Part shown: positions 15,961 to 55,649 of the stretch, in pieces
How positions within the stretch are numbered: position 1 is the first letter of the stretch
How the letters are laid out: each line of letters opens with the position of its first letter
NCBI RefSeq assembly: GCF_963921235.1
Contig: NC_086097.1
Span: forward strand, 60,266,001 to 60,330,000
Origin: Mobula hypostoma
Taxonomy: Eukaryota
Length of the DNA: 64,000 nucleotides
Reading direction: 5' to 3'
Notes under the pieces: generated by a model
Database searches by the model: none
Told to the model about the DNA's origin: nothing
The model's input: the letters and a program-made list of their open reading frames with translations, nothing else
Position numbers and translations under genes: made by a program

Positions 15961-16589
15961 CTTTTCTTTTGCTTCCTTCCTCTTGTTTTATATGTATGGT
16001 TTTAATACTTCACAGTTTAGTCCATGAACAATCATTTCATTTTTAATTTAAAATAATTGGTATTTTCTTTCATTTAACAATAAATTAGATGCCCTAAGTA
16101 CCAGTATCTTTGACAACAGCAAGCTGTCAGACACCATCATGGTAGTCTGGAGGTTGGGGTTTCAGGCTGTCAGATGAGGACTGCTCCTCATCATGAAGAA
16201 CCAGATGGTGGAAGCCTCCAGGATGGCTCATGAGGAGATGTTCATGAAATCAATACGGGGCCAGAGTGCACGCATTGGATGGGTTTAAACATAACTCAGC
16301 CCATTTACAGTGGTCCAAGTGTTGCATTAAATCTATGACAGATGGTTTAATTTCCCATGTTACTTTTTGACAAAAGACTTCAAACCATTATATCTAATGA
16401 TATGCAAGTCAATTTACTATTTACGATCTTTTACGTAAAGGCCAATGAATTTGATTCAAAATTGCAATGGAAAACAAATACTTCTCTCAGCAGAGATCTA
16501 AAAGCAACCACCCAAGCATTAAAAGTGACCACTGGTTAAGTAATTGGTCTGCACTGAACAAATCCAAAATAATATTTCATTTCTATTTT

Positions 16590-19540: not shown

Positions 19541-19633
19541 GTAAACACGAAGAAATCTGCAGATGCTGGAATTTCAAGCAACGGCCTCTTCTACCGTCAA
19601 GATGAAGCCACACCCAGGTTGGAGGAACAACAC
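19541..19633. mobile_element. Tiny chimeric Penelope-like remnant
   Basis: The inverted terminal tail (aaacacgaagaaatctgcagatgctggaatttcaagcaac) is joined directly to GIY-YIG coding sequence (GLFYRQDEATPRLEEQH). Confidence 0.75.
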
Positions 19634-19850
19634 CATTTTAGAATGGATCTTGAATTACTCGTCAAGAAGGAAGAAATATCACTCATAAGTATTGCAATAT
19701 TCTGACACATGTGACTGAATCTTTTTACAAACAGCATGTAACTGAATCTTTTTACAAACAGCAGTGCTGAAATCCTTCAAGTATGTGTACAGCGACAGAT
19801 TGTTGGCCAGAAAGAGCTACAATCTACAAACCAGGGAATAGGAATGAGGT

Positions 19851-20668
19851 AGAATCACAAACACAATATAATCTACAGATGCTGGAAATCTAAGCAACAC
19901 ACACAAAATGCTGGAGGAGCTCAGCAGGTCAGGCAGCATCTACGGAAAAGAGTAAACAGTTGATATTTCAGGCCAAGATCCTCATCAGGACTTGAAAAAA
20001 AGATGGCAAATAAGAGTAAGAAGATGGCAGAAAGGAGTAAGTAGTACAAGGTGGTAGATGATAGGTGAAACTGGGTGAAGGGTAGGGATAAAGTAAATAG
20101 CTGGGAAGTTGATAGGTGAAAGAGATAAAGGGCTGGAGTTGGGGGGAATTTGAGGAGTGTATAGAAGGCCAAGGCCTCCTGTTACTGCCACGATGAGGCC
20201 ACACCCAGGTTAGAGAAGCAATGCCTTATATTCAGTCTCAGTAGCTTCCAACCTGATGGCATGAACATCAATTTCTCTAACTTCTGGTAATTGCCCTTCT
20301 CTTTCACCATTCCCTATTTCTGTTTCTCTCTCTCACATTATCTCCTTATCTGCCCATCAACTCCCTCTGTTGCTTCTCCTCCATCGCTTTCTTCCATGGT
20401 CTTCTATCCTCTCATTTCATATGACCCTCCTCCAATCCCTTACCTCTTTCACCAATCAACTTCCCAGCTCTTTACTTCATCATTCCCCTTGTCCTGGTTT
20501 CATCTATCACTTGCCACTTCTTCCTCCTTTCCCCCACCTCCTTACTCTGACTTTTCATCTTTTTTTCCAGTCCTGATGAAAGGTCCTGGCATGAAACATC
20601 GACAGTTTACACTTTTCCATAGATGCTGCCTGGCCTGCTGTGCTCCTCCAGCATTTTGTGTGTTTTGT
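19851..20668. mobile_element. Inverted-repeat Penelope-like element, older subfamily
   Basis: Minus arm ~19855-20170 and plus arm ~20170-20665. Flanked by aataggaatgaggt (19837-19850) and aacaggaatgaggt (20669-20682). Confidence 0.85.
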
Positions 20669-23639: not shown

Positions 23640-24975
23640 AGATTCAAGATTCAACGATTCAAAGATTCAAATTACATTTATTATCAAAGTACTGTATGTA
23701 TAAATTGTACAGCTTTGAGATTTGTCTGCTTACAGGCAGCCACAAAGCAAGAAATTCGAAAGAAGCCAACTAAAAAAAAATGAAGACCAACACCCAATGC
23801 ACAGCAAAAGAGGGAAAAACACAAATCATGCGAACAATAGAAATAGGCGATAGCACTCCGAACCAAGTTAAGTCCATAGACCTAAATTCCCAGAGCAACC
23901 GCAGTAGGCCGAAAGCCTCGAGCTTAAGTTCATCATATAGTGGGGCAAGCTGCCGTGAAGCTTGCAGACATGAAGCCTGTAGCAGTGGAAGCAGACTCAC
24001 GGCCTCAGTGCCATGGAGAGAGGAGTGTACTTTGCTGGAGAATGAGCAACAGCAGCCCGACCGTCACTTCCGGTCCTGGCACCCTGCCTTTCCAGCCTAC
24101 CTGGGCCAGCATTTAAATTATTCAAACACCAGGTTGTGCCCTTCCAGGCCCCAGTGCAGGGCCTAGACTTCATTGCCCAGCCCAAAGCCATTCTCAACCT
24201 CTCCAACAGGGCTCGGCACTCAGAGTAATCCAACTTCGCACCCAGTTTAGGCGGACGGGAATCAAAACTTCTCTGCCTCAACTCCTTTTTGAATCATTCA
24301 CTTCAACTCCATCTCCTTCTCTGAAACTGTATTGGACACATTGTGCCCTGACTTTGCAATGCATTAGGACAACTTATACCTCGAGTAACCTCCACCTCCA
24401 CTCACCTCTTCATTGTTTGCAGTGACAGTATACCACAATTTACCTCATAAGAAGTGTTATTTTGGAATTTAGAAGATTGAAGGGGGATCTAATTGAAACC
24501 TATAAAATTCTAAAGGGATTGGACAGACTAGATGCAGGGAGATTGTTCCCGATGTTGGGGAAGTACAGAATGAGGGGTCACAGTTTGAGGATAAAGGGGA
24601 AGCCTTTTAGGACCGAAATGAGGAAAAACTTCTTCACACAGAGAGTGGTGAATCTGTGGAATTCTCTGCCACAGGAAACAGTTGAGGCCAGTTCATTGGC
24701 TATATTTAAGAGCGAGTTAGATAAGGCCCTTGTGGCTAAAGGGATCAGGGGGTATGAAGAAAAGGTAGGTATAGGGTTCTGAGTTGGATGATCACCCATG
24801 ATCATACTGAATGGCGGTGCAGGCTCGAAGGGCCGAATGGCCTACTCCTGCACCTGTTTTCTATGTTTCTATGTTTCTATGTTATTAATTATGTCTTTAG
24901 TTGTATTTTGTATCTTCTGAATAATCAGTAAGCTGTCACACAACTCCTGTAGTATTAGTTTATGACTCTTCCCCC
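23640..24975 (-). mobile_element. Non-autonomous retroposon with LINE-like 3' end, interrupted by CR1
   Basis: (AAGATTC)n tail plus catttattatcaaagta at 23640-23700, shared with 55650-55720 and 46430-46500; GC-richer body. The right boundary is approximate. Confidence 0.5.
24462..24880 (+). mobile_element. CR1 3' fragment with (TTTCTATG)n tail
   Basis: EFRRLKGDLIETYKILKG...FFTQRVVNLWNSLP; possible TSD tgttatt at 24455-24461 and 24880-24886. Confidence 0.92.
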
Positions 24976-26154
24976 CAGAGTTGTGCGTGAGGCAACTTTC
25001 TTTGTTCTTTCTGACTCAGACTGGTTCAAACTAATCCAGTCATGACAGCTGAATACTGGGCCAAGGCCTCTACAGATCACAGGCGGTTCTTTCTAAAAGC
25101 TTGCCATTTTTACATATCTGAATAAACAGATTCTTATTTGAAAATGGTCTCAGGTTTAGCAGGTCATCAGCCAGAAACTTATTGTTCCCACGTTTAATCT
25201 CTCTGATTGAGCTATCTCTGAGTAAAAAGCTGTTCACCAAATGTTGACAAAATGGTAGCCACAAGGACACTCTCACAAAAGGGCAGCCTCATTTCTTTGA
25301 CCACATGGCAAGAACAAAAACATTTGCTTTGCAAGCTTCCACTGCCCTTGCCTCATTCCTGTTTTGCAGATTTTAGTTCTTTCTAGCCACTTTGGGGTCT
25401 CTTCTGCCATTTCCTCTGTAGTGAGCATATCATGGACCAGAATGACTGGATGTGAACCTGACTCTCCTCAGAAATCTGTGGTGTAGCTGTGGAGTAGGCA
25501 GCAGGAGCAGACTCTAAATTCTAGCTCTATCCATTATCGTGTCAGTAATATGCTGGAGAAAAAACGTGCACATCTTTCTTGCTCTACCCCTGAACTCATC
25601 ATACAGTCTGGGGCTTCGGTAAATTACTGAGCTGAGGGTCCGGTACATTTCTCATTCAGCCCCTCAGTTTAAGCAATAACTGATGCATGTAGCCTGGCCT
25701 CACTCATTCAAAGGAGGTCACTTGCAAACTAAAGGTAAGGTAGATCGTTGTTTGAGCTTAATTTTCATTATTTCAATTTTTATGTTGTAATTAATAAATA
25801 AATTCCATTAGTTATTAAATAAATAGATCATGTCTTTTAAAATATTAAATAAACATCAAATATCATCCAGTAAAGGCAAAGGAGATAGTGATGGTCCAAT
25901 AAGCAATTGAGCAAAAGTACTGAACTGGAAGTGTAAAATAAATATCTTCATCTTCCTTCACATCACCCATGGGAAATAGCAATTAATAAGCAAATTATAC
26001 ATAATAAATAATATTCTCTCTATCTATTGCAAATGGTGAAACTAAGAAATTAACTTTGTATCCTTCATTTTCTATATTTGCACATAAGAAATAAATCAAC
26101 CCTAACTGATTTCAGTTTGGATGATAACATATAAAATAGAATAATTTGAGACCA

Positions 26155-26364
26155 GGCAACACACATAAAAGTTGCTGGTGAACGCAGCAGGCCAGGCAGC
26201 ATCTCTAGGAAGAGGTACAGTCGACGTTTCAGGCCGAGACCCGTGACGAAGGGTCTCGGCCTGAAACGTCGACTTACCTCTTCCTAGAGATGCTGCCTGG
26301 CCTGCTGCGTTCACCAGCAACTTTTATGTGTGTTGCTTGAATTTCCAGCATCTGCAGAATTCCT
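26155..26364. mobile_element. 210-bp palindromic Penelope-derived mini-element
   Basis: Inverted arms 26156-26242 and 26251-26336 (one 1-nt indel), tail 26337-26364, perfect TSD ataatttgagacca at 26141-26154 and 26365-26378. Confidence 0.95.
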
Positions 26365-27554
26365 ATAATTTGAGACCATCTTTTTAAAAGGGATAAGTTG
26401 TTTTATCAACCCACAAAAATACTTAGGTTATTGCATTTACACAAATACAGGCTTTGATTAAAATATTGACTAAAATGAGAAAACAAGAAATAGGAGATTA
26501 AAAGCATGTTTCACAATTTTTACCTCAGTTTCACATTCAGAGCCTTCATCCAGTGATCAGAGATTTATTAGTCTCAGTCTCCAAGATGTTCAACATTTAC
26601 AAGTCCTCAAACAAGGAGTAGAAAATTCAAACTAGCCAGTATCGTCTTAGTAGAAAATTTTCACCTCACTTTCAATACAAAATGGTCAGCCCCCTCCATG
26701 TCCACCCACCCTTCGATGAAACTATGTCCCCATAGATCTGTCAGAATGGGCATAGAAGCCATTTATCCTGTTAAACAGGATTCAGATCCAGTTTAGTTTA
26801 TTCTAATTTTCACCAGGGTGCAATGAAATTCCATGATCTCATGAAACTCACAGAATAAATAGTCTACATGTTAATAACAAATACAATAAACAGAGTGATG
26901 TGCGAAACATCCAAATGATGCAAGGACAGTAGTACAATGTGAAGAAGAGAAAAAAAGAAATACAAAAATGACAATAAATTATAACAGAAAAATAGAATGA
27001 AGAGTGTCAGCACCCACCAGGAAAGGGGATGTGAAACAGATTAGTTCAGAATTTTGACACATTGGGAAAGAAACTGTTCTTGCGTCTGACCGTCTGGGCT
27101 TCCAACTATCTGCATCTTCTCCTAAAGTTAGAATGGAGAGAAGGGAATGTCCATCGTGGCAGACACTCTTGACAATACTGTTACCTTTATGATAAATGCA
27201 CTGTGTATGCTTTCAAGGGATGTGTGTTTCGGGGAAATTACCGCAAGTTCTTCCAAATTCCAGAAAATGTAGTTTTATCTACCTCGATAAATTAAGCGTT
27301 TCATCCCAGGAATCAAATTTGTGAACCACTGTTACATCTTCTTTCAGGATAATTTATTTTTTTTCAGGTAAGGCGACCATTTATTCGTATTGAAGAATAC
27401 TATCAACATTCTTAAAATATGAAAACTTATAGAAGGTGAATCAACTCTTCTCGGGCTTCCAGTCGAGTACAGATATCAATTTTAACTACTATTGATTCCT
27501 CTGGGTAACCCAAACGGATACACCTCCTGTACGCCCTGATGCAGGTTTGCACTG

Positions 27555-28292: not shown

Positions 28293-29046
28293 GTTAAGAT
28301 CAATACCTGTACCCAGATGGAAACCTGAGAAGAGTTTATTCGTCATATACATCAGGAAAGAACTAGATCCTTTTGTTATAAACATATATTTTTACAAAAA
28401 AAGCAGGAAAATGTCATTCTGCGACTCAATCCTATTCTAAGATTCATTAAGATTGTGGCTGATTTGATCTTGGTCTCAAATCCACTAGAATGTCTGTACT
28501 CCAAACTCCTCAACTATATTTTGTCTTGTACTTGAACAAATTCATTGGCTCTATCTACACCAACACGGAATAGAGAATTTCAAAGATACACAATCCTTTG
28601 AGAGAAAAAAAATCCTCCAAATCTCCATTTTAAATGAGCAAAACTAATTTTGAAACTGTCTCCTAAGGAGAAACATCTAGTCATAATCTACCTGCCAAAG
28701 CACTTAGAATTACCACTTATTCCTCTAAGCTCCACTGAGAATAGATCCAACCCACTCAAGATAATTTTTTTTTCATTCCAGCAATCAACTCAGTGAACAT
28801 TGCCTGAATTTTCCCCATTATTTTCCTGCCCTTTATGGGTGTGGAATGGCATTTATTGTTCATACTCCTTCCAATGGAAGCCAGTTGATTAACCTTCCTG
28901 ATTGCTTGCTTATCTGTACGCCAACTTTCTGGTTTTCACATATGAGGAAACCCACACTGCTGTATGCTGCAGGATTCTGTAATCTGTCTCCCCACACCCC
29001 CCCCCCACCTTAATATGTAAATGTTTTTTGTGACTCTTTTTATTAT

Positions 29047-31371
29047 AGAGACATAGAAACATAGAAAATAGATGCAGGAGTAGGCCATTTGGCCCTTCGA
29101 GCCGGCACCGCCATTTATTATGATCATGGCTGATCATCCAACTCAGAACCCCACCCCAGCCTTCCCTCCATACCCCCTGACCCCCGTAGCCACAAGGGCC
29201 ATATCTAACTCCCTCTTAAATATAGCCAATGAACTGGCCTCAACTGTTTGCTGTGGCAGAGAATTCCACAGATTCACCACTCTCTGTGTGAAGAAGTTTT
29301 TCCTAATCTCGGTCCTAAATGGCTTCCCCTCTATCCTCAAACTGTGGCCCCTCGTTCTGGACTTCCCCAACATCAGGAACAATCTTCCTGCATCTAGCCT
29401 GTCCAATCCCTTTAGGATTTTATACGTTTCAATCAGATCCCCCTCAATCTTCTAAATTCCAACGAGTACAAGCCCAGTTCATCCAGTCTTTCTTCATATG
29501 AAAGTCCTGCCATCCCAGGAATCAATCTGGTGAACCTTCTTTGTACTCCCTCTATGGCAAAGATGTCTTTCCTCAGATTAGGGGACCAAAACTGCACACA
29601 ATACTCCAGGTGTGGTCTCACCAAGGCCTTGTACAACTGCAGTAGTAGCTCCCTGCTCCTGTACTCGAATCCTCTCGCTATAAATGCCAGCATACCATTC
29701 GCCTTTTTCACCGCCTGCTGTACCTGCACGTCCACTTTCAATGACTGGTGTATAATGACACCCAGGTCTCGTTGCACCTCCCCTTTTCCTAATCGGCCAC
29801 CATTCAGATAATAATTTGTTTTCCTATTTTTGCCACCAAAGTGGATAACTTCACATTTATCCACATTAAATTGCATCTGCCATGAATTTGCCCACTCACC
29901 CAACCTATCCAAGTCACCCTGCATCTCTTAGCATCCTCCTCACAGCTAACACTGCCACCCAGCTTCGTGTCATCCGCAAACTTGGAGATGCTGCATTCAA
30001 TTCCCTCATCCAAGTCATTAATATATATTGTAAACAACTGGGGTCGCACTACTGAGCCTTGCAGTATCCCACTAATCACCGCCTGCCATTCTGAAAAGGT
30101 CCTGTTTATTCCCACTCTTTGCTTCCTGTCTGCTAACCAATTCTCCACCCACACCAATACCTTACCCCCAATACCGTGTGCTTTAAGTTTGCACACTAAT
30201 CTCCTGTGTGGGACCTTGTCAAAAGCCTTTTGAAAATCCAAATATACCACATCCACTGGTTCTCCCCTATCCACTCTACTAGTTACATCCTCAAAAAATT
30301 CTATGAGATTCGTCAGACATGATTTTCCTTTCACAAATCCATGCTGACTTTGTCCGATCATTTCACCGCTTTCCAAATGTGCTGTTATCACATCCTTGAT
30401 AACTGACTCCAGCAGTTTCCCCACCACCGACGTTAGGCTAACCGGTCTATAATTCCCCGGTTTCTCTGTCCCTCCTTTTTTAAAAAGTGGGGTTACATTA
30501 GCCACCCTCCAATCCTCAGGAACTAGTCCAGAATCTAACGAGTTTTGAAAAATTATCACTAATGCATCCACTATTTCTTCGGCTACTTCCTTAAGCACTC
30601 TAGGATGCAGACCATCTGGCCCTGGGGATTTATCTGCCTTCAATCCCTTCAATTTACCTAACACCACTTCCCTACTAACATGTATTTTGCTCAGTTCCTC
30701 CATCTCACTGGACCCTCTGTCCCCTACTATTTCTGGAAGATTATTTATGTCCTCCTTAGTGAAGACAGAACCAAAGTAATTATTCAATTGGTCTGCCATG
30801 TCCTTGCTCCCCATAATCAATTCACCTGTTTCTGTCTGCAGGGGACCTACATTTGTCTTTACCAGTCTTTTCCTTTCTACATATCTATAAAAGCTTTTAC
30901 AGTCTGTTTTTATGTTCCCTGCCAGTTTTCTCTCATAATCTTTTTTCCCCTTCCTAATTAAGCCCTTTGTCCTCCTCTGCTGAACTCTGAATTTCTCCCA
31001 GTCCTCAGGTGAGCCACTTTCTCTGGCTAATTTGTATGCTTCTTCTTTGGAATTGATACTATCCCTAATTTCTCTTGTCAGCCACGGGTGCACTACCTTC
31101 CTTGATTTATTCTTTTGCCAAACTGGGATGAACAATTGTTGTAGTTCATCCATGCAACCTTTAAATGCTTACCATTGCATACCCACCGTCAATCCTTTAA
31201 GTGTCATTTGCCAGTCTATCTTAGCTAATTCACGTCTCATACCTTCAAAGCTACCCCTCTTTAAGTTCAGAACCTTTGTTTCTGAATTAACTATGTCACT
31301 CTCCATCTTAATGAAGAATTCCACCATATTATGGTCACTCTTACCCAAGGGGCCTCTCACGACAAGATCGC
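29047..31371 (-). mobile_element. Young 5'-truncated CR1 LINE (APE end, RT, 3' UTR)
   Basis: ORFs 31169-31360 (GKSDHN), 29804-31153 (KSPGPDG, DFQKAFDKVPH, FADD), 29433-29924 and 29143-29406. (ATAGAAAC)n tail; possible TSD tattat at 29041-29046 and 31372-31377. Confidence 0.96.
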
Positions 31372-32024
31372 TATTATGTATGAGTGCTTACTCTGATTAT
31401 ACTGCTATACTTCCAAGGATTTTCTAATATAGTTCCTCATATTGCATGGATCCTGCTTATAATATTAATGAATGACATGGAACAGAAGGTTTGCACTGCC
31501 AAATAATTGAATTTGCTGCAGGCAGGAGCAAGCAAAATGTCAGTTGATGAGGGAAACTTGGACCAATTATATTGATAAACTGAGATAAAGCAGTTGAATT
31601 TTAATACAAATATTATCACAGAGTAGCTGATTTACAACTAGATAACAGTTAGAAAGTAAGTGTTTTACTTAAACAGGCAAGACTTCCTCACTGCCATTCT
31701 GAAAATGACAGAAAATCTGATTAAAGTTAATAATTTAGCTGATTAACATAAAAAGCTAGCAGTAAACTTCCAAGTCTGGAACGTGATCAAATATCTGAAA
31801 GATAAAATAAAATCTAGCAGGACATGAATTGTGTGGGATTGATTTCAAGTGCTGGTTATGAAGTGAAACATATTTAGTTCAAGGCCTATTGACACCTTTA
31901 GAAGGAATGTGAATCCATACCTGTGATTATGGTGCTAATTATAAAGTGTCTCTGGGGTTCTGGAAATAGGTGTTTTGAAAAGAGAACCAGAAAGGATGAA
32001 GTTAGATACTGAGGATCCATTCAT

Positions 32025-33140
32025 AAACAAGAGATAATCTGCAGATGCTGGAGATCCAAGCAACGCACACAAAATGCTGGAGGGACTCAGCAGACTGAGC
32101 AGTATCTATGGAAAACAGAACAGTCACCATTTCAGGGCTTCATCAGTACTGGAAAAAATATGAGGAGTCAGAGGAAGAAGGGTAATAGATGAAACCGGGA
32201 GGGGTGAAGTAAAGAGCTGGGAAGTTGATTGGTGAAAGAGAGCCAGGACTGGAGAAGGGGGAGTCTGATAAGAGAGGACAGAAGGCCATGGAAGAAAGAA
32301 AAGGGGGAAGAGCATTTGAGGGAGGTGATACGCAGGTAAGGAGATAGGTGAGAAAGGGAAATGGGAATGTTGAAGTGGTGGGGGGCATTACCAGAAGTTT
32401 AAGAAATCACTGTTCATGTTAACAGGTTGGAGGCTACCCAGGCGGAATATAAGGTTTTGCTCCTCCAACCAGAGTGGAGCCTCATCATGACAGCAGAGGA
32501 GGCCATGGACTGACATGTAGGGATGGGAATGTTAAGTGGAATTAAACTGGGTGGCTACTGGGAGATCCCACTTTTTCTGGCAAATGGGATGTAGGTGCTT
32601 GGATTGGAAGCGGTCTCCCAATCTGCTTTGGGTCTCACCGATATATAGGAGTCCACACCGAGAGCACTAGATACAGTAGGTGACCCCAACAGACTCACAG
32701 GTGAAATGTTGCCTCTCCTGGAAAGACTGTTTGGGGACCAGAATGGTAGTGAGGGAGGATGTAGGTTCAGGAGTAGCACTTGTTCTGTTTGCAAGGATAT
32801 GTGCCAGGAGGGAGATCGGTGGGGAGGGATGAATGGACCAGAGCGTTGCATATGGAGCAATCCCTGTGGAAAGCAGAAATTGGTGGGGGGAGGGTGAAGG
32901 GAAAGATGAGCTTAATGGCGTGATCCCATTGGAGATGGTGGAAGTTATGGAGAATTATGTGCTGGATGCAGAGGCTTTTGAGGTGGTAGGTGATGACAAT
33001 GGGAACCCTATCCCCAGGGTGGAGTGGCAGGATGGTGTGAGGACAGACAAGCAGGAAATTGAAGTGATGTGGTTGAGGTCAGCGTTAATGGTGGAGGAAG
33101 GGAAGCCCGTTTCATTGAAGAAGGAGGTTCCTCTTGTTGA
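32025..33140 (-). mobile_element. Penelope-like element 3' part (RT thumb, GIY-YIG, terminal repeat), diverged
   Basis: SFFNETGFPSSTIN in ORF 32955-33143; colinear with the minus arm at 50044-51230; degenerate hammerhead at 32121-32151. Confidence 0.88.
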
Positions 33141-34060: not shown

Positions 34061-34714
34061 CATTGATCCATGGTATTTCCAGAGCAACTTTTTTTTTCTT
34101 TTGCTGAGATATTATATTTATCATTACATATTTTCAGAAACAGTAAAACAGAGAACACAGTTGTTTAGAAATGGGATCCATTAGCACCCAATACTTATGT
34201 GCAGATAGTGGTTTTGATTGATTTTTGCCAAGTTAAATTAAGCCCAAAGTCATTTCTGGGTCAAATCACCATTTAGGAAATTAGTTCAGGCATTTAATCA
34301 CATGTACTATCTTAAGGTGGCTAATGTTGGCCCAGCATCAGTCATGCACCTAAAGATAACATAGATCACACATTGCATATTCCGTCCACAGTTGGCAGAA
34401 ATTGGAGCATTTGGAGAGAACATTTTACTGATTACTCACAAAAACAAAATAACAGCTCTTTCTTCAGGGATTGGAATTGGAATGGTGTTTATAGTGTCTG
34501 CACTTTGATATTAATGGCCTGCACACAGCATCTGCCAGTCTCCATTTCCAGTACTCAGCATTATTGGAAGCGATTTGGTGGTGGACCTAAGCCATCAGTT
34601 GTCACTGAATACAGATTTCAAAAATAGCACCATAAAATTCTACAAACACTGAGCCAGTCAGGCAGTGACTATGGGAAGAGAAGTAGAGGCACAAAAGCCT
34701 CATATCTTCTGCTC

Positions 34715-35281
34715 CATAACATCTGTACACACCAGCTATGTGGTGAAAATGCACAGCAGCACCTCTTTCACCTCAGATGGTTGAGGAAGTTTGGTATGGG
34801 CCCCCAAATTCTAAGAACTTTCTACAGGGACACAACTGAGAGCATCCTGACTGGCTGCATCACTGCCTGGTATGGAAACTTTATCTCCCTTAATCACAGG
34901 ACTCCAGAAAGTGGTGTGGACAGCCCAGCGCAACTGTAGTTGTGAACTTCCCATGATTCAGGACATTTACAAGGACAAGTGTTTAAAAAGGGCCTGTAGA
35001 ATCACTGGGGACCCAAGTTACCCCAACCACAATCTATTCCAGCTGCTACCATCCGGGAAATGGTACTGCAGCATAAAAATCAGGACCAATAGGCTCCGGG
35101 ACAGCTTCTTCCACCAGGTCATCATACTGATGAACTCACACTGATTTGACTGTTCTATTTATTATAAACTATTATAAATTACTGTGATTGCACATTGCAC
35201 ATTTAGGTGAAGATGTAACGTAAAGAATTTTACTCCTCATGTATGTGAAGGATGTAAGAAATAAGGTCAATTCAATTCAAT
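34715..35281 (+). mobile_element. Rex1/Babar-type LINE 3' fragment with (CAATT)n tail
   Basis: LQKVVWTAQR...DPSYPNHNLFQLLPSGK...RLRDSFF. Confidence 0.85.
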
Positions 35282-41924: not shown

Positions 41925-42192
41925 TCCTGGTCAGGCAGCATCTTTGGAAAAGAATAAACAGTCGATGTTTTGGGCTGAGACCCTTAGTCAGGACCAGAAA
42001 GCAAGGGGCCTAAAACCAGAATAAGAAGATGAACAGAGGGGAAAGTGTAAAGCCAGCAAGTGATAGGTGAAAACAGGTAAGAGGGAAAGTGGGTACTGGA
42101 TGGCAAATGGGGGATTAAGTTGTTGCTTGACCTGCTGAGTTCCTCCAGCATTTTGCTCTGGATTTCCAGCATCTGCAGAATCTCCTGTGTTT
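41925..42192. mobile_element. Short inverted Penelope-like terminal-repeat remnant
   Basis: Minus arm with degenerate hammerhead (41959-41995) joined to the plus-strand terminus ...ccagcatctgcagaatctcctgtgtt. Confidence 0.75.
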
Positions 42193-44940: not shown

Positions 44941-45575
44941 GTTGATCTTGTCTAAAACTGGTACAAACTCAATGGGCCAAATAGCCTCATACTATGCTGT
45001 TATCTTTTCTGTGATTCTGTATTTCTGGTTCAAAAAATCAACATGAGATACATTAACCTAATATTATACCAAACCTTCAACTATAGATTTCTTTTTGTGA
45101 TTGTCTGAGTTGGAAGTCTATTTTAACGACAAATTTAGAGTAATCACCATTATGAAACCTGAATTAAAAATTATACATTCAATGAAAGTTGTCATCTATA
45201 AAATTCTGAATTGGATTTTTATTGTTGTCCCATTATATTTACATTACCATTTCATTATTTTCACAGCTCATTGACTAGCTTAGCATTTAATTAGTTTTAT
45301 TCAGCAGTACTGCAGAGTGGTCAATGATGCATCCATTTACTCTTATATTCAAACCTTACCATTCTAAATCATAAATGGAGATAAATTCACAACTGTTTCA
45401 AGTGTGGGACAGATTCTTTATCTATACTTTGATATCTTTACCCTTTCAGTGTTCAATGGATTAAGTAATTTTCATACGCAAACACGAGGAAATCTACAGA
45501 TGCTGGAATTTCAAGCAACACATAAAAATTGCTGGTGAACGCAGCAGGCCAGGCAGCATCTATAGGAAGAGGTAC

Positions 45576-45611
45576 AGTCGACGTTTCGGGCCGAGACCCT
45601 TCGTCGGGACT
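45576..45611 (-). ncRNA. Minimal type-I hammerhead ribozyme motif (core variant CCGACGA)
   Basis: Reverse complement reads agtc-CCGACGA-a-ggg-tctcgg-ccc-GAAAC-GTC-gact. Confidence 0.75.
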
Positions 45612-46165
45612 AACTGAAAGAAGAGATAGCAAAAGATTTGAAAGGGGGTGGGAGAGGGGTAGATCTGAAATGATAGGAGAAGGCAGGAGGGGGAGGGATG
45701 GAACTAAGAGCTGGAAAGTTGATTAGCAAAAGGGATACGAGAGGATCATGGGACGGGAGGCCTAGGGAGAAAGAAAGAGGGAGGGGGAAGCCCAGAGGAT
45801 AGGCAAGGAGTATAGTGAGAGGGACAGAGGGAGAGAAAGGTAAGAGAAAAAAAAAGCAATAATAAATAAATAATAATAATTATTATTATTTGTATTATTT
45901 TATTTATTATTATTATTTTTTCTCTCTCCTTTTTCTCCCTCTGTCCCTCTCACTATATTCCTTGCCCATCCTCTGGGCATCCCCACTCCCCCTTTCTTTC
46001 TCCCTAGGCCTCCCGTCCCATGATCCTCTCATATCCCTTTTGCCAATCAACTTTCCAGCCCTTAGCTCCCTCCCCCTCCTGTCTTCTCCTATCATTTCGG
46101 ATCTCCCCCTCTCCCTCCCACTCCCACTCCCACTTTCAAATCTCTTACTATCTCTTCTTTCAGTT

Positions 46166-46201
46166 AGTCCTGACGAAGGGTCTCGGCCCGAAAGGTCGAC
46201 T
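46166..46201 (+). ncRNA. Minimal type-I hammerhead ribozyme motif (GAAAG variant)
   Basis: agtc-CTGACGA-a-ggg-tctcgg-ccc-GAAAG-GTC-gact. Confidence 0.78.
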
Positions 46202-46419
46202 GTACCTCTTCCTATAGATGCTGCCTGGCCTGCTGCGTTCACCAGCAATTTTTATGTGTGTTGCAAACAATTTTCATCTGGGCTTTTTTTGTGAGATCAA
46301 CAATCAACACTAACCCCCACCCAGAGGATGAGAATTCCATTGGGAAAGGAAATCATTCAAATTAATGAAAATGTCTCAACAATTTCACCAGTCAACTCTT
46401 AAGACAGTAGATGTTCTCT

Positions 46420-46870: not shown

Positions 46871-47055
46871 CTTGGAAGTCTCTGAATTCTTTCGTTGTAC
46901 TCTTGAGCAAGAAATAAGCACATTGTTTTCAATAACTTAATAGTGTAATATTGAGGCAAACAGCAGGAATTCTATAGATGCTGGAAATTCAAGCAACACA
47001 CATTAAAGTTGTTGGTGAACGCAGCAGGCCAGGCTGCATCTCTAGGAAGAGGTAC

Positions 47056-47091
47056 AGTCGACGTTTCAGGCCGGGATTCTTCGTCAGGACT
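47056..47091 (-). ncRNA. Minimal type-I hammerhead ribozyme motif (stem II mutated)
   Basis: Reverse complement reads agtc-CTGACGA-a-gaa-tcccgg-cct-GAAAC-GTC-gact. Confidence 0.72.
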
Positions 47092-48558
47092 AACTGAAGG
47101 AAGAGTTAGTAAGAGGTTTGAAAGTGGGAGGGGGAGGGGGAGATCCGAAATGATAGGAGAAGAGGAGGGGGAGATCCAAAATGATAGGAGAAGACAGGAG
47201 GGGGAGGGATGGAGCCAAGAGCTGGACAGGTGATTGGCAAAGGGGATATGAGAGGATCATGGGACAGGAGGTCTGGGGAGAAAGACAAGGGGGGGGGAAC
47301 CCAGAGGATGGGCAAGGGGTATAGTGAGAGGGACATAGGGAGAAAAAGGAGAGAGAGAGAGAGAGAAGGAATGTGTGTATAAAAATAAATAATGGATGGG
47401 TATGAGGGGGAGGTGGGGCATTAGCGGAAGTTAGAGAAGTTGATGTTCATGCCACCAGGTTGGAGGCCCGGAGAATAATATGTTGGACCCGGAGGCTGGT
47501 GGGGTGGTAGGTGAGGACCAGGGGAACCCTATTCCTAGTGGGATGGCGGGAGGATGGAGTGAGAGCAGATGTACATGAAATGGGGGATGCGTTTCAGAGC
47601 AGAGTTGATAGTTGAGGAAGGGAAGCCCCTTTCTTTAAAGAAGGAAGACATCTCCCTCGTCGTGGAATGAAAAGCCTCATCCTGAGAGCAGATGTGGCAG
47701 AGACAGTCCTGGAACTTCTGCCACCTCCAACGGGATCTCACCACTAAACACATCTTTCCCTCCCCCCCACCCGCTTTCCGCAGGGATCGCGCCCTACGCA
47801 ACTCCCTTGTCCATTCGTCCCCCCTATCCCTCCCCACTGATCTCCCTCCTGGCACTTATCCTTGTAAGCGGAACAAGTGCTACACATGCCCTTACACTTC
47901 CTCCCTTACCACCATTCAGGGCCCCAGACAGTCCTTCCAGGTGAGGCGACACTTCACCTGTGAGTCGGCTGGGGTGATATACTGCATACGGTGCTCCCGA
48001 TGTGGCCTTCTATATATTAGCGAGATCCAACGCAGACTGGGAGACCGCTTTGCTGAACACCTACGCTCTGTCCGCCAGAGAAAGCAGGATCTCCCAGTGG
48101 CCACATATTTTAATTCCACATCCCATTCCCATTCTGACATGTCTATCCACGGCCTCCTCTACTGTAAAGATGAAGCCACACCCAGGTTGGAGGAACAACA
48201 CCTTATATTTCGTCTGGGTAGCCTCCAACCTGATGGCATGAACATCGACTTCTCTAACTTCCGCTAATGCCCCACCTCCCCCTTGTACCCCATCCGTTAT
48301 TTATATGCACACATTCTTTCTCTCACTCTCCTTTTTCTCCCTCTGTCCCTCTGAATATACCCCTTGCCCATCCTCTGGGTTCCCCCGCCACCTTGTCTTT
48401 CTTTCTGGACCTCCTGTCCCATGATCCTCTTATATCCTGTTTGCCAATCACCTGTCCAGCTCTTGGCTCTATCCCTCCGCCTCCTGTCTTCTCCTATCAT
48501 TTTGGATCTCCCCCTCCCCCTCCCACTTTCAAATCCCTTACTCACTCTTCCTTCAGTT

Positions 48559-48594
48559 AGTCCTGATGAAGGGTCTCGGCACGAAACGTCGACT
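48559..48594 (+). ncRNA. Minimal type-I hammerhead ribozyme motif (intact core)
   Basis: agtc-CTGATGA-a-ggg-tctcgg-cac-GAAAC-GTC-gact; one stem II mismatch. Confidence 0.82.
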
Positions 48595-49229
48595 GTACCT
48601 CTTCCTAGAGATGCTGCCTGGCCTGCTGTGTTCACCAGCAACTTTGATGTGTGTTGAGTGTAATATTGAGACTGATCATTTTTCAAGCCAAAATATTGGA
48701 GTGGCCATAATCCCTACAATTTTTGCACCCCAAATCCATCTGCACAAACTCACTGCATACCAAAATAAAGCATCACACTTTAATTTGTTCCTGTCCTTGG
48801 CCAGAAAAGTTGATTGGCATTGCATTAACAATTATCATATCATTAAATGGATCCTTAGGCAGTTAAATTCTAGCCCTAACATTCTATGCCAAGTTTAATG
48901 GACAATTAATATGCAAATCTAACCACTTCTTTAAAATAATGGGACAGATAAATGTGAAGGAAATGGTGAGCAGTTTAAATAGATCAGAATGATCTCAAGG
49001 CTCATGACTCATGGTGGATTCTTTAGTCACTAAAGCTTACTAACTAATTTGTGCATTGGCAACAACTGCATTATGATTATCCAGCAAGATCTCAACCTGG
49101 ATTTGTATTTCTTTTGAGATCTAGGATTAGTTGCATTAAAATTTAGTAACAGTGCTTTGAAAGTTTTCTGACATAACAGAAGTTGGCACTCTGGAAGCTT
49201 CACTTATGTTGGGGTTTTTACTTTCACAG

Positions 49230-49366: not shown

Positions 49367-50144
49367 GTATATTTTGCTGAATGAAACTGAAAATAAATAT
49401 AGCCAAGTGTGAAGATAGCAGACAGTCTTTCATTTTGCCACATTCTTCAGAGGCCTTTCAGAAATGTGGTTTTAAAAAGCTGAAGCCTCAGGAAGCATAA
49501 CAATGGAGTATATATCTCTGTACACTCCCAAAGTCTATAAGCCTCAGAAATATCCCAGCTTCAATGATTCTGGTTTCCTGAGTAACCGTGATATTAATTG
49601 CTTTACCATCGACAGATGTGACTTCACCTTCTAAACGTCTAATCTCTTGAACTTGCTCCCAAATCCTCTCAAACTTTTTTCTTCTCCTATCAAGATGTTC
49701 TTCAAAAACTAATTATTTTACTAAGCATTCAATCAGCTATCCTACCATTTCAAAATTTGACAAATAAACTATTGTTTTATCAATATAGCATTTATTTAAC
49801 TTATTTTCCTTCTGTAATTGATAAAACATATGAACAAAAGCAAGTAGCAGGAGAATGTTTCTAAGTCTCTTAAGCTTGATCTACCATTCAAAAAGATCAA
49901 ATAATTATTTCAACACTACATTCATGCTCTATTCTCTTTCTCCTGGAATCCCTTCCAAATCAGATCCGAGTGCCATAAATTATCTGAGTCTGAAGAACCT
50001 TCTGAGATTGAGAATTCTAAAAACTCATCACTCTCTTAAGGAACGCAAACACGAGGAATTCTGCAGATGCTGGAATTTCAAGCAACACACATCAACGTTG
50101 CTGGTGAACGCAGCAGGCCAGGCAGCATCTCTAGCAAGAGGTAC

Positions 50145-50180
50145 AGTCGAAGTTTCGGGCCGAAACCCTTCGTCAGGACT
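50145..50180 (-). ncRNA. Minimal type-I hammerhead ribozyme motif (UUC variant)
   Basis: Reverse complement reads agtc-CTGACGA-a-ggg-tttcgg-ccc-GAAAC-TTC-gact. Confidence 0.75.
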
Positions 50181-51299
50181 AACTGAAGGAAGAGCTAGTA
50201 AGAAATTTGAAAGTGGGAGGGGGAGGGGGAGATCGAAAATGATAGGAGAAGACAGGAGGCGGAGGGATAGAGCCAAGAGCTGGACAGGCGATTGGCAAAA
50301 GGGATATGAGAGGATCATGGGACAGGAGGCCCAGGGAGAAGGAAAAGGGGGAGGGGGGGGAAACCCAGAGGATGGGCAAGGGGTATAGTCAGAGGGATAG
50401 AGGGAGAAAAAGGAGAGAGAGAGAAAGAATGTGTGTATATAAATAAATAACGAATGTGGTACGAGGGGGAGGTGGGACATTAGCGGAAGTTAGAGAAGTC
50501 AATATTCATGCCATCAGGTTGGAGGCTACCCAAACGGAATATTAGGTGTTGTTCCACCAACCTGAGTGTGGCTTCATCTTTACAGTAGAGGAGGCCGTGG
50601 ATAGACATGTCAGAATGGGAATGGGATGTGGAATTAAAATGTGTGGCCACTGGGAGATCCTTTTTTCTCTGGCGGACAGAGGGTAGGTGTTCAGCAAAAT
50701 GATCTTCTAGTCTGCGTCAGGTCTCGCCAATATATAGAAGGCCACATCGGGAGCACCGGACGCAGTATATCACCCCAGCCGACTCACAGGTGAAATGTCG
50801 CCTCACCTGGAAGGACTGTCTGGGGACCTGAATGGTGGTAAGGGAGGAAATGTAAAGGCATGTGTAGCACTTGTTCCGCTTACAAGGATAAGTGCCAGGA
50901 GGGAGATCAGTGGGGAGGGATGGGGGGGACGAATGGACAAGGGAGTCGCGTAGGGAGCAATCCCTGCAGAAAGCGGGGTGGCGGGAAGGAAAGATGTGCT
51001 TAGAGGTGGGATCCCGTTGGAGGTGGCGGAAATTACGGAGAATAATATGTTGGACCTGGAGGCTAGTGGGGTGGTAGGTGAGGTCCAGGGGAACCCTATT
51101 CCTAGTGGGGTGGCGGGAGGATGGAGTGAGAGCAGATGTGCGTGAAATGGGGGAGATGCGTTTGAGAGCAGAGTTGATGGTGGAGGAAGGGAAGCCCCTT
51201 TCTTTAAAAAAGGAGGACATCTCCCTGGTCCTGGAATGAAAAGCCTCATCCTGAGAGCAGATGCAGCAGAGTTCCTGGAATGAAACGCCTCATCCTGAG

Positions 51300-54200
51300 T
51301 TCAGTGAAAGAATCTCTCACTGCTCCCCCATCTGTAATTTCTTCGGCTCTTCAACCTTTCGACCACATTTTGACTCAGACTCGCTATCACAGCCATATAT
51401 CCTTTCTTGGAACGTGCCTCCATCGCCAAGTTACTCCAGTTGGCTTTAGGATTCGTTTTCAAGCCTCTCAATCTGGACCTTCTGAGGATCCCAGGTACTC
51501 ATATTTTATTGACTTTGCCTCTCGTCGCTTCTCCCGTCAAGCTCTGAAGGCGACCCTGTCCGCCATGAGGAGATATTTGGTGTCCTTATAGCAGACTCTT
51601 CCACACCTTTGGGACACTTTCTTCGCCGTCTGTAATGGTCCTACCCGTTATTTCATCCTCCGTCGGATTCACGCCTGCAATCGCCGTTTTTTTGACTTTG
51701 TCATGTTAGGCAAAGATCCCAAGATCTTACATCTGCAGACCTCAGAGCCTGCTGGCCCTGACGCTAGCAGGCATGAACTTCAGATTGCGGCCCCTGCCAT
51801 TGATCTCGCCGGCTCCAACACTTCAGGACATGTTCAAAACCCGGACTCCAGCAACGACCATGGACACCTTCAAAGCGATTGCGCAACCACCAACTGAGAC
51901 TCCAGCCTTGAACTCCAGGCCGGGTCTTTATGTGTTGCTATTGTGACTCCCGTCTTCCCTTCCCCAATTACCACTCTGCAACCCTGTCTCCTTCAGATCC
52001 CACCATCAGCTTCTGGGCCCTCAGAGGCTCCACCTTCCTCTCACCCCAACCCTCCCCTCTCCACTGATGCACTCAGCCTCCCCCCTCTCGCCTCTGAACC
52101 CAGCTGTCATCCGTGCCGGGTCTTTACCATCCCCTCCGACCTTCAACTCTCTGAGGCAGAGCGCTCTATCCTCAGTAAGGGCCTCACCTTTGTCCCCCTT
52201 CGCCCACACCTCAGCGAGTTCTGCGTTCGCCAGGATGCGGAACTCTTCTTCCGCCGTCTTCGTCTCCGAGCCTACTTCTTCAGCAAGGACTCTTCCACCC
52301 CCACCGATGATCCCTTCTCCCGTCTTCAACCCTCCTCCTCTTCATGGATACCCCGCTCTGGTCTTCTGCCTGTCTGGATCTCTTTATTGCTAATTGCCGA
52401 CGGGACATCAACCGTCTCGACTTCACCGCACCTTGTTCCCATTCCAACCTTACTCCTTCCGAACGCTCTGCTCTCCACTCCCTCCGCACTAATCCTAACC
52501 TTACTATTAAACCCGCCGATAAGGGGGGTGCTGTTGTAGTCTGGCGTACTGACCTCTACCTTGCCGAGGCACGGTGACAACTCGCGGATACCTCCTCTTA
52601 TTTACCCCTCGATCGTGACCCCACTAAGGAGCGCCAGACCATTGTCTCCCACACCATCACCGACTTTATCCACTCAGGGGATCTCCCATCCACTGCTACC
52701 AACCTTATAGTTCCCACACCTCGCAACTCCCGTTTCTACCTCCTACCCAAGATCTACAAACCTGCCTGTCCTGGCAGACCTATTGTCTCAGCTTGCTCCT
52801 GCCCCACCGAACTCGTTTCTGCATACCTCGACACGGTTTTATCCCCCCTTGTTCAATCCCTTCCTACCTATGTTCGGGACACTTCTCACGTTCTTAAACT
52901 TTTCGATGATTTTAAGTTCCCTGGACCCACTGCTTTATTTTCACCATGGATGTCCAGTCCCTATATATTTCCATCCCCCATCAGGAAGGTCTCAAAGCTC
53001 TTCGCTTCTTTTTGGATTCCAGACCTAATCAGTTCCCCTCTACCACCACTCTGCTCTGTCTAGCGGAATTAGTCCTTACTCTTAATATTCTCATTTGGCT
53101 CCTCCCACTTCCTCCAAACTAAAGGTGTAGCTATGGGCACCCATATGGGTCCTAGCTATGCCTGCCTTTTTGTTGGCTTTGTGGAACGATCTATATTCCA
53201 AACCTATTCTGGTATCTGTCCCCCACTTTTCCTTCGCTACATCGATGACTGCATTGGCGCTGCTTCCTGCACATATGCTGAGCTCGTTGACTTCATTAAC
53301 TTTGGCTCCAACTTTCACCCTGCCCTCAAGTTTACCTGGTCCATTTCTGACACCTCCCTCCCCTTTCTAGATCTTTCTGTCTCTATCTCTGGAGACAGCT
53401 TATCTACTGATGTCTACTATAAGCCTACTGACTGTCACAGCTATCTGGACTATTCCTCTTCTCACCCTGTCTCTTGCAAAAATGCCACCCCCTTCTCGCA
53501 ATTCCTCCATCTCCGCCGCATCTGCTCTCAGGATGAGGCTTTTCATTCCAGGACCAGGGAGATGTCTTCCTTTTTTAAAGAAAGGGGCTTCCCTTCCTCC
53601 ACTATCAACTCTGCTGTTAAACGCATCTCTCCCATTTCACGTACATCTGCTCTCACTTCATCCTCCCGCCGCCCCACTAGGAATAGGGTTCCCCTGGTCC
53701 TCACCTACCACCCCACTAGCCTCCGGCTCCAACATATTATTCTCCGTAACTTCCGCCACCTCCAACAGGATCCACCACTAAGCACATCTTTCCCTCCCCC
53801 CACCCTGCTTTCCACAGGGATTGCTCCCTATGGGACTCCCTTGTCCATTCGTCCCCCCCCATCCCTCCCACTGATCTCCCTCCTGGCACTTATCCTTGTA
53901 AGCGGAACAAGTGCTACACATGCCCTTACACTTCCTCCCTTACCACCATTCAGGGCCCCAGACAGTCCTTCCAGGTGAGGCGACACTTCACCTGTGAGTT
54001 GGCTAGGGTGATATACTGTGTCCGGTGCTCCCAATGTGACCTTCTATATATTGGCGAAACCCGATGCAGACTGGGAGATCGTTTTGCTGAACATCTACGC
54101 TCTGTCAGCCAGAGAAAGCAGGATCTCCCAGTGGCAACACATTTTAATTCCACATCCCATTCCCATTCTGATATGTCTGTCCACAGCCTCCTCTACTGTA

Positions 54201-54301
54201 AAGACGAAGCCACACTCAGGTTGGAGGAACAACACCTAATATTCCGTTTGGGTAGCCTCCAACCTGATGGCATGAATATTGACTTCTCTAACTTCTGCTA
54301 A
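51300..54301 (+). pseudogene. Penelope-like polyprotein (N-terminal domain, RT, Cys linker, GIY-YIG endonuclease), disrupted
   Basis: Motifs in order: HISFLGTC...PVG, LSEAERSILSKGLTFVP, IKPADKGGAVVVW, MGTHMGPSYA, RYIDD, LPFLD, YYKPT, CKRNKCYTC, VIYCVRCSQCDLLYIGET...RFAEH. Several stops and frameshifts. Confidence 0.95.
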
Positions 54302-54593
54302 TGCCCCACCTCCCCCTCGTACCCCATCCGTTATTTATTTATATACACACATTCTTTCTCTCTCTCTCCTTTTTCTCCACCTGTCCCTCTGACTATACCC
54401 CTTGCCCATCCCTTTCCCCCCTCCCCCTTTTCCTTCTCCCTGGGCCTCCTATCCCATGATCCTCTCATATCCCTTTTGCCAATCACCTGTCCAGCTCTTG
54501 GCTCCATCCCGCCTCCTCCTGTCTTCTCCTATCATTTTGGATCTCCCCCTCCCCCTCCCACTTCCAAATCTCTTACTAGCTCTTCCTTCAGTT

Positions 54594-54629
54594 AGTCCTG
54601 TCAAAGGGTCTCGGCCCGAAATGTCGACT
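54594..54629 (+). ncRNA. Degenerate hammerhead ribozyme motif
   Basis: agtc-CTGTCAA-a-ggg-tctcgg-ccc-GAAAT-GTC-gact; core mutated. Confidence 0.6.
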
Positions 54630-55649
54630 GTACCTCTTCCTAGATGGCCTGCTGCGTTCACCAGCAACTTTAATGTGTGTTACTCTCTTATGGAAGAAAT
54701 TTCTCCTGATTTTAGTCCTAAAAGACCTAACCATTATTTTAAGACTGTGACTCTTGGTTATAGGCTACATATTCAGAGATGAACAACATTCTCCCAATAT
54801 CAATGTTAACAAACCCTGAAGGATTTTTTGAGTGTTTCAATGAGGTCAACTCTCATTCTTCTAAATCTCAGCAAATGACTAGCCCAATCAATCTCTCTTC
54901 ATATTACAGACTTGCTATCTTACAACCCCAGGAACAGACTGGTAAATCTTTGTTGTGTATCCCCTAAAGCACGTAGATCTGTTTTTAGGTAAAGAGACGG
55001 CAGTATGGTATCACTGTGGCCTTATATATATTTTTGTGAGACAAATGTACGCACTTTAGTGTTCAAATCTCCGTGCAATGTAAGCCAACATAAACATTTG
55101 CCAACATAACTACTGCTGCAGTTGTTTGTTTTCTTTCATTGACAAAGATAACCAGGTCCCTCTGTACATTAGCAATTCCCAATTACTCACCACTTAAAAA
55201 AAAATCCATCTATTCACCCTTTGTCATCTGCTCAATTTGCAGGTTGGTTGTTGGATTACTATTGCTAACTCAGATAAATCACTGGTTTATAATGCATTAG
55301 GTTGCACTGTGCAAAAAGTATTATTCTGCGGTTAAGGTTTTGTTGTCTTTAAAGAGGTTTAACCTGCGCTAATTGATGAGATCATTCAATATTTAACTCT
55401 GGCAACAAGACAAATGTTGGCTAAGTAGAAGTTAGTTCACAAATATTTCTCTAGGTTAGTTCACACAATATGCTTAACAAATCTTCTCATAACCTCTAAC
55501 ATCACTGTTTCCAGTATATACTCCACACCACTCTTCAATATCCGTAATGCCAGGATGTTTAGTTTCACTTCAACAATATTCATCCAACTAGCTAAAAATG
55601 AAAAGCAAACTGAGCGTTAGCATGCTCATAACTGTAACAACATAAATAC

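What the first reader, a model, noticed from the sequence alone, without database searches (positions are those of the whole stretch)
26141..26378. 210-bp near-perfect hairpin mini-element built from two head-to-head hammerhead halves, with a perfect 14-bp TSD
Seen: 87/86-nt inverted arms differing by a single indel, an 8-nt loop (gtgacgaa) falling inside the hammerhead core, a 28-nt one-sided tail, and TSD ataatttgagacca on both sides. It looks like a MITE but is made entirely of the Penelope terminal repeat, and it has lost the 5' stem I strand of the ribozyme on both strands. Inference: this is either the minimal product of Penelope integration (inversion within the ribozyme) or a separately amplifying non-autonomous family. 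If transcribed it would form an ~87-bp dsRNA hairpin.
Basis: partly seen in the sequence, partly recalled or inferred. Interest (0 to 1): 0.7.

Follow-up and report, generated by a model that had tools for sequence, protein, structure and literature searches.

The report
Two-armed Penelope retrotransposon insertion stub
This 210-base DNA hairpin is a real insertion made of two head-to-head end-pieces of a very common Penelope-type jumping gene, likely built in place when both cut ends of the chromosome copied the element's RNA, so it is mostly ordinary, though the place where such arms tend to stop may mark where that RNA begins.

Summary
In detail: 87/86-nt arms, 8-nt loop, 28-nt tail, perfect 14-bp TSD. 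A contig from a related organism holds the empty site (224 bp skipped, one 14-mer), and a second organism shares the tail-side junction, so it is a real, not brand-new, insertion. It is the shortest of five inserts in this window with one plan: TSD, reversed 3' arm, forward 3' arm, tail on one arm only. The longest carries RT, Zn-finger linker and GIY-YIG (Neptune-type Penelope). That plan is published, including opposite-strand hammerhead pairs. Both hammerheads are broken, and both arms run past the predicted cut site. Best reading: a dead-end product built at insertion, likely by priming from both target ends; in two sister inserts the tail-less arm is the longer, which simple fold-back cannot give. 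Sister junctions are diverse but cluster just before the ribozyme core, and a one-base variant of this junction appears to recur, so a hotspot is likely and an amplified family is not excluded; no genome was held to count copies. This scan already reported this class many times, in this genome and in shark genomes.

The parts
26141..26154 (+). left copy of 14-bp target site duplication
   Evidence: single copy at the empty site in run X13
26155..26155 (.). single G where the element has A; follows a 2-nt match (CA) between target end and element
26156..26242 (-). tail-less arm: pLTR positions about +9 to +96 (hammerhead C3 = +1), ending at the inner 3' end shared by sister copies
   Evidence: loose ends at the same place in many contigs
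26218..26242 (-). hammerhead remnant: stem II, GAAA, palindromic ACGU, cut triplet, stem I 3' strand; no CUGANGA box, no stem I 5' strand
   Evidence: sequence, alignment to sister copies
26243..26250 (+). 8-nt loop: one G not explained by either arm plus the 7 extra 5' bases (+2 to +8) of the longer arm; a 3-bp microhomology (CCT/AGG) is available at this join
26244..26274 (+). hammerhead remnant: core from U4, stem II, GAAA 26263-26266, predicted cut after C26270, stem I 3' strand 26271-26274; C3 and stem I 5' strand absent
26251..26336 (+). tail-bearing arm, paired part; lacks one G present in all 9 other arms aligned
26337..26364 (+). one-sided tail, 28 nt, ending at +123, about 8-11 nt short of the usual outer end (+130 to +134)
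26365..26378 (+). right copy of 14-bp target site duplication
45476..46264 (.). sister insert A: same plan, arms about 380 (tail) and 350 nt, AT-rich palindromic centre, TSD 9 bp exact (13 bp with 2 mismatches)
46956..48656 (.). sister insert B: same plan, 14-bp TSD; tail arm has an internal deletion of about 510 nt next to the spacer
50043..54681 (.). sister insert C: tail arm about 1.2 kb, tail-less arm about 3.4 kb with broken RT, CX4CX2C linker and GIY-YIG; 13-14-bp TSD with 1 mismatch
19855..20668 (.). sister insert D (older subfamily): tail arm about 320 nt, tail-less arm about 500 nt, 14-bp TSD with 1 mismatch

Best explanation
The hairpin is a TSD-flanked insertion of two head-to-head 3' end-pieces of a Neptune-type Penelope-like retrotransposon, likely assembled on the spot as a dead-end product when both cut target ends primed reverse transcription of the element's RNA. 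Shown: anatomy, empty site, origin of every part, same plan in four longer neighbours, both ribozymes incomplete, both arms running past the predicted cut site. From the literature (PAc in vitro, PMC11167929): the protein nicks and extends both target strands and starts at two nearby internal sites whose spacing is the tail; uncut RNA is the main template. Inferred: staggered nicks 14 nt apart; one 3' end primed at the outer site (+123 here), the other at the inner site (+96); both cDNAs stopped early (+2, +9), close to where many sister arms stop, which may be the RNA 5' end just before the ribozyme core; the two cDNA ends were then joined and filled in. Whether one RNA or two served as template is not resolved. 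The product has no promoter region, no complete ribozyme and, if transcribed, would bury its start sites in an 86-bp stem, so it is predicted not to move again.
For: Each arm is antisense on the strand whose 3' end sits at the TSD, the orientation that priming from each end gives. 5 of 5 two-armed inserts in the window have the tail on exactly one arm, the other arm ending at about +93 to +97, and a TSD of 13-14 bp (9 exact in A). In 2 of the 5 (C: 3.4 vs 1.2 kb; D: about 500 vs 320 nt) the tail-less arm holds sequence absent from the tail arm, so it was not copied from it. Contigs of four runs show the two 3' ends as major loose-end places (50045-47 and 50081-83; 26337-8). Junctions differ among sisters; 9 of the 14 displayed strand-change or from>to rows have one end within +6 to -10 of C3 (nominal p 2e-5, range chosen after seeing the data), and 6 of 12 displayed 'letters between' rows place a forward arm start within 7 nt upstream of +2 although up to 40 could be shown. 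Arm divergence (1-2 differences) fits an insertion older than the split of organisms A and B (flank 1-2.5% apart; Poisson P 0.63-0.94), so no selection on the hairpin is needed.
Against: This locus itself also fits cDNA fold-back: its tail-less arm is a subset of the tail arm and a 3-bp stem can form at the join. The G-less form of this junction is listed in 28 contigs of X1 and 16 of X5 with summed depth 3,477 and 1,218 against 5-7 for the flank (not a copy number), which a family would also give. Three other Penelope loci in the window (32021-33125, 41929-42192, 19541-19634) show no inverted arm pair. Arms within an insert are only modestly more alike than arms between inserts (92.6-94.5% vs 86.2-92.5%), so a shared template molecule is not shown. 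The strong loose end at 50180 is confounded by an older subfamily that diverges there and was not counted. Only the best-supported rows of the joint tables were visible. The in vitro work is on a Poseidon element, not a Neptune.
Confidence: 0.6

Rival explanations
1. Same origin at insertion, but one arm was copied from the other: the tail-primed cDNA stopped just past C3, folded back by a 3-bp stem (CCT/AGG, 5-nt loop) and copied itself, and the endonuclease resolved the product at the inner site.
For: Tail-less arm is contained in the tail arm here, in B (allowing for its deletion) and roughly in A, whose centre is an AT palindrome. The G-less junction that this predicts appears to recur. 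Arkhipova et al. 2013 (PMC3846280, Discussion) read junction palindromes as self-priming; Craig et al. 2021 (PMC8557442, passage) ascribe the tail to EN-mediated resolution.
Against: Fails for C and D. In PAc the inner end is a start site on RNA, used from both target strands (PMC11167929). The observed junction has an extra G that weakens the stem.
Confidence: 0.22
2. An amplified non-autonomous, MITE-like family: one founder hairpin is transcribed and reinserted as a unit by the Penelope protein.
For: A one-base variant of the junction is listed in 28, 16, 0 and 2 contigs of the four runs. The unit keeps both start sites.
Against: Hundreds of different joints, none of those shown above 6 contigs in a run; depth at the loop is about 1% or less of depth on the arms (25-41 thousand vs 3-14 million in X1); lengths grade from 0.2 to 4.6 kb within one window; 1 match to the 30-nt junction in the window at up to 3 mismatches; no promoter region and start sites predicted to be base-paired.
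Confidence: 0.12
3. A longer two-armed insertion that later lost its centre by inverted-repeat instability.
For: Insert B has an internal deletion beside its spacer.
Against: That deletion is one-sided and widens the spacer; it does not explain why arm ends cluster at the ribozyme core.
Confidence: 0.05
4. Assembly artefact.
For: No listed contig spans the loop of this locus.
Against: Empty site differs by exactly 210 + 14 bp in organism D; right junction in two organisms; 96-97% of sampled words held by four runs of the possible source sample.
Confidence: 0.01

Closest known systems
Insertion unit of EN+ Penelope-like elements (Adineta Pen2a, PMC3846280; Fig. 2 legend of PMC8557442; D. virilis form C, PMC2377424)
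   Same: Inverted 5'-truncated copy head-to-head with the main copy, 30-40-nt tail on one side only, TSD.
   Different: Both arms cut down to under 125 nt; no ORF, no direct pLTR pair; TSD 14 bp against 8-10 bp in Adineta; tail 28 nt.
Dual minimal hammerheads on opposite strands 100-700 bp apart in Schistosoma mansoni (PMC4209133)
   Same: Short opposite-strand pairs of PLE minimal hammerheads, read there as truncated PLEs.
   Different: Here the join falls inside the core, so neither ribozyme is complete.
PAc (Poseidon, Anolis carolinensis) in vitro reaction (PMC11167929)
   Same: Two 3' ends about 35 nt apart, both target strands used, template not cut at the ribozyme, AT-rich target.
   Different: Neptune-type source here; PAc work did not reconstitute the joined two-armed product.
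Non-LTR retrozymes (bioRxiv 10.64898/2026.07.22.740005)
   Same: Non-coding, derived from a PLE pLTR, type I hammerhead sequence.
   Different: Retrozymes are head-to-tail tandems with complete ribozymes; this is head-to-head with broken ones.
MITEs (own knowledge)
   Same: Short, non-coding, long inverted repeat, TSD.
   Different: Ends are unequal (one-sided tail), sequence is retroelement 3' end, long TSD, no transposase partner; resemblance is of shape only.
L1 twin priming (own knowledge, recalled)
   Same: Both target ends prime reverse transcription; inversion with TSD.
   Different: In L1 the two cDNAs cover different parts of the RNA; here they cover the same part, giving a palindrome.

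Membership tests
EN+ Penelope-like element insertion | Sequence derives from the pLTR of an element with RT and C-terminal GIY-YIG in one ORF | tested here: met
   92-93% to pLTR of insert C; C matches RT+GIY-YIG proteins over residues 201-929 of P0024, E 3e-157. Pfam gave no hit on the five single-frame pieces scanned.
EN+ Penelope-like element insertion | Adjacent inverted 5'-truncated copy, head-to-head | tested here: met
EN+ Penelope-like element insertion | 30-40-nt tail on one end only | tested here: met
   28 nt here, about 36-40 nt in A-D; two end peaks in contigs
EN+ Penelope-like element insertion | Target site duplication | tested here: met
   14 bp; empty site with one copy
Neptune/Nematis type | CX2-5CxxC linker between RT and EN (PMC8557442) | tested here: met
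   CKRNKCYTC upstream of the GIY-YIG in inserts B and C
Neptune/Nematis type | RT phylogeny placing it in Neptune rather than Nematis | not tested
   no named reference set was fetched
Minimal type I hammerhead (PMC4209133) | Core boxes, 4-5-bp helix I, helix II, palindromic 15.2-16.2, in the parent pLTR | tested here: met
   7 motif matches in the window, 5 with 5 of 5 stem I pairs (the pattern allowed U4>C). Rfam has no match at gathering score and no hammerhead at E<=10.
Minimal type I hammerhead (PMC4209133) | Complete motif in the finding itself | tested here: not met
   no motif match at 26141-26378 on either strand; C3 and stem I 5' strand missing on +, whole first box on -
Non-LTR retrozyme | Head-to-tail tandem units each with a complete hammerhead | tested here: not met
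   no tandem array here; head-to-head
Amplified non-autonomous family / MITE-like | Many copies with one shared centre and shared ends at different target sites | tested here: inconclusive
   no genome held; 1 copy in window; diverse joints but a recurring G-less variant
MITE | Equal terminal inverted repeats at both element ends, matching a DNA transposon | tested here: not met
   28-nt one-sided tail; ends are Penelope 3' ends

The most novel reading that the evidence does not exclude
Stubs like this are a genomic record of a 'strong-stop'-like step in Penelope transposition: the protein primes from both target ends at start sites near the 5' end of an uncut, capped RNA, runs off the RNA end a few bases before the hammerhead core, and the two short cDNAs are joined at a preferred microhomology. 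Thousands of stub junctions would then map the transcription start, the template count and the joining step of a transposition cycle whose later steps are unvalidated.
Probability: 0.35. Interest if true: 0.5.

Novelty: new member of a known kind. Interest (0 to 1): 0.22.

Why it matters
This single locus is most likely inert. Its value is as a clean, dated example (filled in two organisms, empty in a third) of the smallest Penelope insertion unit. How these elements make inverted ends and a one-sided tail is still open (PMC8557442 and PMC11167929 both say later steps await tests), and the class of stubs allows counting tests between two-ended priming and fold-back. It is also usable as a presence/absence phylogenetic marker.

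Tried and rejected
Whole-genome junction count: no genome held. Rfam: 0 matches at gathering score in 64 kb; at E<=10 only 6 miRNA-hairpin rows and 1 snoRNA row, all far below gathering score, rejected as shape matches. Pattern scans of viral contigs (2 loci) and metagenome contigs (119 loci, scan stopped at 40 of 64 parts): 0 of 121 loci had a pLTR match of 30 nt or more. Sequencing runs: no RNA holder listed for the locus; this says nothing on expression. pLTR-like contigs were laid from two runs guessed to be RNA (7,668 and 5,933), which may hold DNA and are not locus-specific. Host gene: 150 of 153 non-repeat frames of 55 aa or more were scanned, 1 hit (a LINE-associated Pfam model at 34628-34936), so no exon was found, but short exons would be missed. 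Depth profiles from contigs were not used as copy number or as a truncation step (tool warning). The loose-end peak at 50180 (155 contigs X5, 131 X13) was set aside because its letters resemble the upstream sequence of the older subfamily. Breakage at the ribozyme cut site rejected: both arms include sequence 5' of it. Arm homogenisation or selection not needed. Single-monomer folding does not give the hammerhead fold significantly (z -0.46 and 0.85), as expected for a dimer-type motif. Look-up of earlier findings by sequence and near this place gave nothing. Literature searches: (0 papers with Penelope + inverted repeat + twin priming + GIY-YIG); none listed a paper on elasmobranch Penelope stubs, but subscription papers, Repbase and Dfam were not searchable.

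Full report
Observation. The sequence at 26141-26378 is as described: identical 14-mers at both ends, arms of 87 and 86 nt differing by one indel, an 8-nt loop and a 28-nt tail. The duplication is far beyond chance and is a true TSD: a contig of run X13 (organism D) reads straight from 26140 to 26365, skipping 224 bp, that is 210 bp plus one 14-mer. Run X5 (organism B) holds the tail, TSD and right flank with 7 differences in 284, so the insertion predates the split of A and B and is absent from D, whose flank differs by 25 letters in about 460. The loop and left junction of this locus are not spanned by any of the 31 pieces displayed, so the centre rests on the assembly.

What it is made of. 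All but two single bases align at 92-93% to the 3' pseudo-LTR of Penelope-like copies elsewhere in the window. Insert C (50043-54681) carries a broken ORF matching RT plus GIY-YIG proteins over 730 residues (best named hits are bamboo shark proteins at 65%), with a CX4CX2C linker, the mark of Neptune/Nematis elements (PMC8557442, passages). The pLTR carries a minimal type I hammerhead with a 5-bp stem I and palindromic ACGU in place of helix III, the dimer-type motif of PMC4209133 (parts 1-2 of 4 read). With C3 as +1, the tail arm spans +2 to +123 and the other arm +9 to about +96. Neither strand has a complete motif. The predicted cut lies after +28, so both arms extend 5' of it: the template was not cut here, in line with PAc, where uncut RNA is the main substrate (PMC11167929, parts 1-2 of 4 read; supplements not read).

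It is one of a series. Five inserts in the window (this one, A 0.8 kb, B 1.7 kb, C 4.6 kb, D 0.8 kb) share one plan: TSD of 13-14 bp (A: 9 exact), head-to-head 3' arms, tail on exactly one arm, the other arm ending at about +93 to +97. Three further Penelope loci show no arm pair. Contigs from four runs laid on a single pLTR show the same two 3' ends as leading loose-end places. This plan is in print: Adineta Pen2a with inverted pLTR, 31-bp tail and 9-bp TSD (PMC3846280, passages and Discussion), the general scheme in PMC8557442, D. virilis form C (PMC2377424, passages), and opposite-strand minimal hammerhead pairs 100-700 bp apart in Schistosoma (PMC4209133).

Mechanism. Each arm is antisense on the strand whose 3' end abuts a TSD copy, which is what priming from both cut ends yields. 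PAc nicks and extends both strands and starts at two internal sites that bound the tail (PMC11167929). Fold-back from the tail-primed cDNA requires the tail-less arm to be a subset of the tail arm. That holds here, in B and roughly in A, but fails in C and D, so two RNA-templated arms is the more general account. At this locus fold-back remains possible, because a 3-bp CCT/AGG stem can form at the join; the same microhomology could equally join two cDNA ends. Within-insert arm identity exceeds between-insert identity only modestly, so one versus two RNA molecules is open. The single G in the loop may be untemplated, a later insertion, or a C3-to-G change; a copied cap would need a start at +2, which I think unlikely.

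One-off, hotspot or family. No genome was held, and collection scans gave no usable copies (0 of 121 loci). Contigs laid on the locus gave 353 joint rows, 15 shown, none above 6 contigs in a run: junctions are diverse. They are not uniform: 9 of 14 displayed strand-change or from>to rows have one end between +6 and -10 (nominal p 2e-5, post hoc range, kind of the nine 5c rows not stated), and forward arms start 1-7 nt upstream of +2 in 6 of 12 displayed rows. Two rows ending at -3 are followed by a C on the + strand that neither subfamily templates, which would fit a copied cap, but two rows are only a lead. The junction without the central G is listed in 28, 16, 0 and 2 contigs with high summed depth, so it probably recurs. 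A microhomology hotspot explains this; a family cannot be excluded with these tools. The idea that the cluster marks the RNA start, and the cap idea, came from earlier notes of this scan; I tested the clustering only. Initiator-like TCAGTT at -7 and CCAGTC at -3 in the older subfamily are my reading from a recalled consensus. In D. virilis the promoter and start lie in the pLTR (PMC2377424, passages).

Function. The arms differ as much as neutral drift since the A/B split predicts. The RNA would be a long hairpin, but transcription of the locus is untested and no host exon was found.

Verdict. A real, small member of a known class; low interest as a locus, moderate as part of a class that could test the PLE integration model. 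The retrozyme preprint (10.64898/2026.07.22.740005; part 1 of 5 and passages, supplements closed) covers tandem derivatives, not this form. Unread supplements of PMC11167929 (genomic end maps) may already show such stubs in Anolis.

Noticed in passing
window 46956-48656: Insert B: the tail arm lacks about 510 nt exactly next to the unpaired spacer, as if the inner part of one arm of a long inverted repeat was deleted.
   Followed up: partly
window 45850-45925: Insert A's inversion falls in an AT-rich palindrome with (TTA)n expansion on the forward arm.
   Followed up: no
window 19541-19634: Odd 95-bp Penelope fragment: about 42 nt of reversed tail joined to about 53 nt of the endonuclease-coding region, no ribozyme part.
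   Followed up: no
window 19855-20668, 32021-33125, 41929-42192: An older Penelope subfamily (about 75% to the young one) keeps the hammerhead boxes and AGTC/ACTG stem I while diverging just upstream.
   Followed up: partly
window 26337-26364: The tail here ends at +123, about 8-11 nt short of the usual outer end; 1 of 5 two-armed inserts.
   Followed up: no
window 29045-31168, 16544-19372, 57643-59013: LINE remnants with RT and/or AP-endonuclease Pfam hits; 29804-31168 and 57643-59013 have open frames of about 455 aa. 24462-24880 is a 91% inverted copy of 29045-29462.
   Followed up: no
window 11999-15090: Broken frames that look like an LTR-retroelement pol (RT/integrase-like words, my reading); no Pfam hit for the two frames scanned.
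   Followed up: no
runs X19 and X14: Strand-change joints of sister stubs occur in two runs guessed to be RNA, so some hairpin loci may be transcribed; DNA in those runs is not excluded.
   Followed up: no
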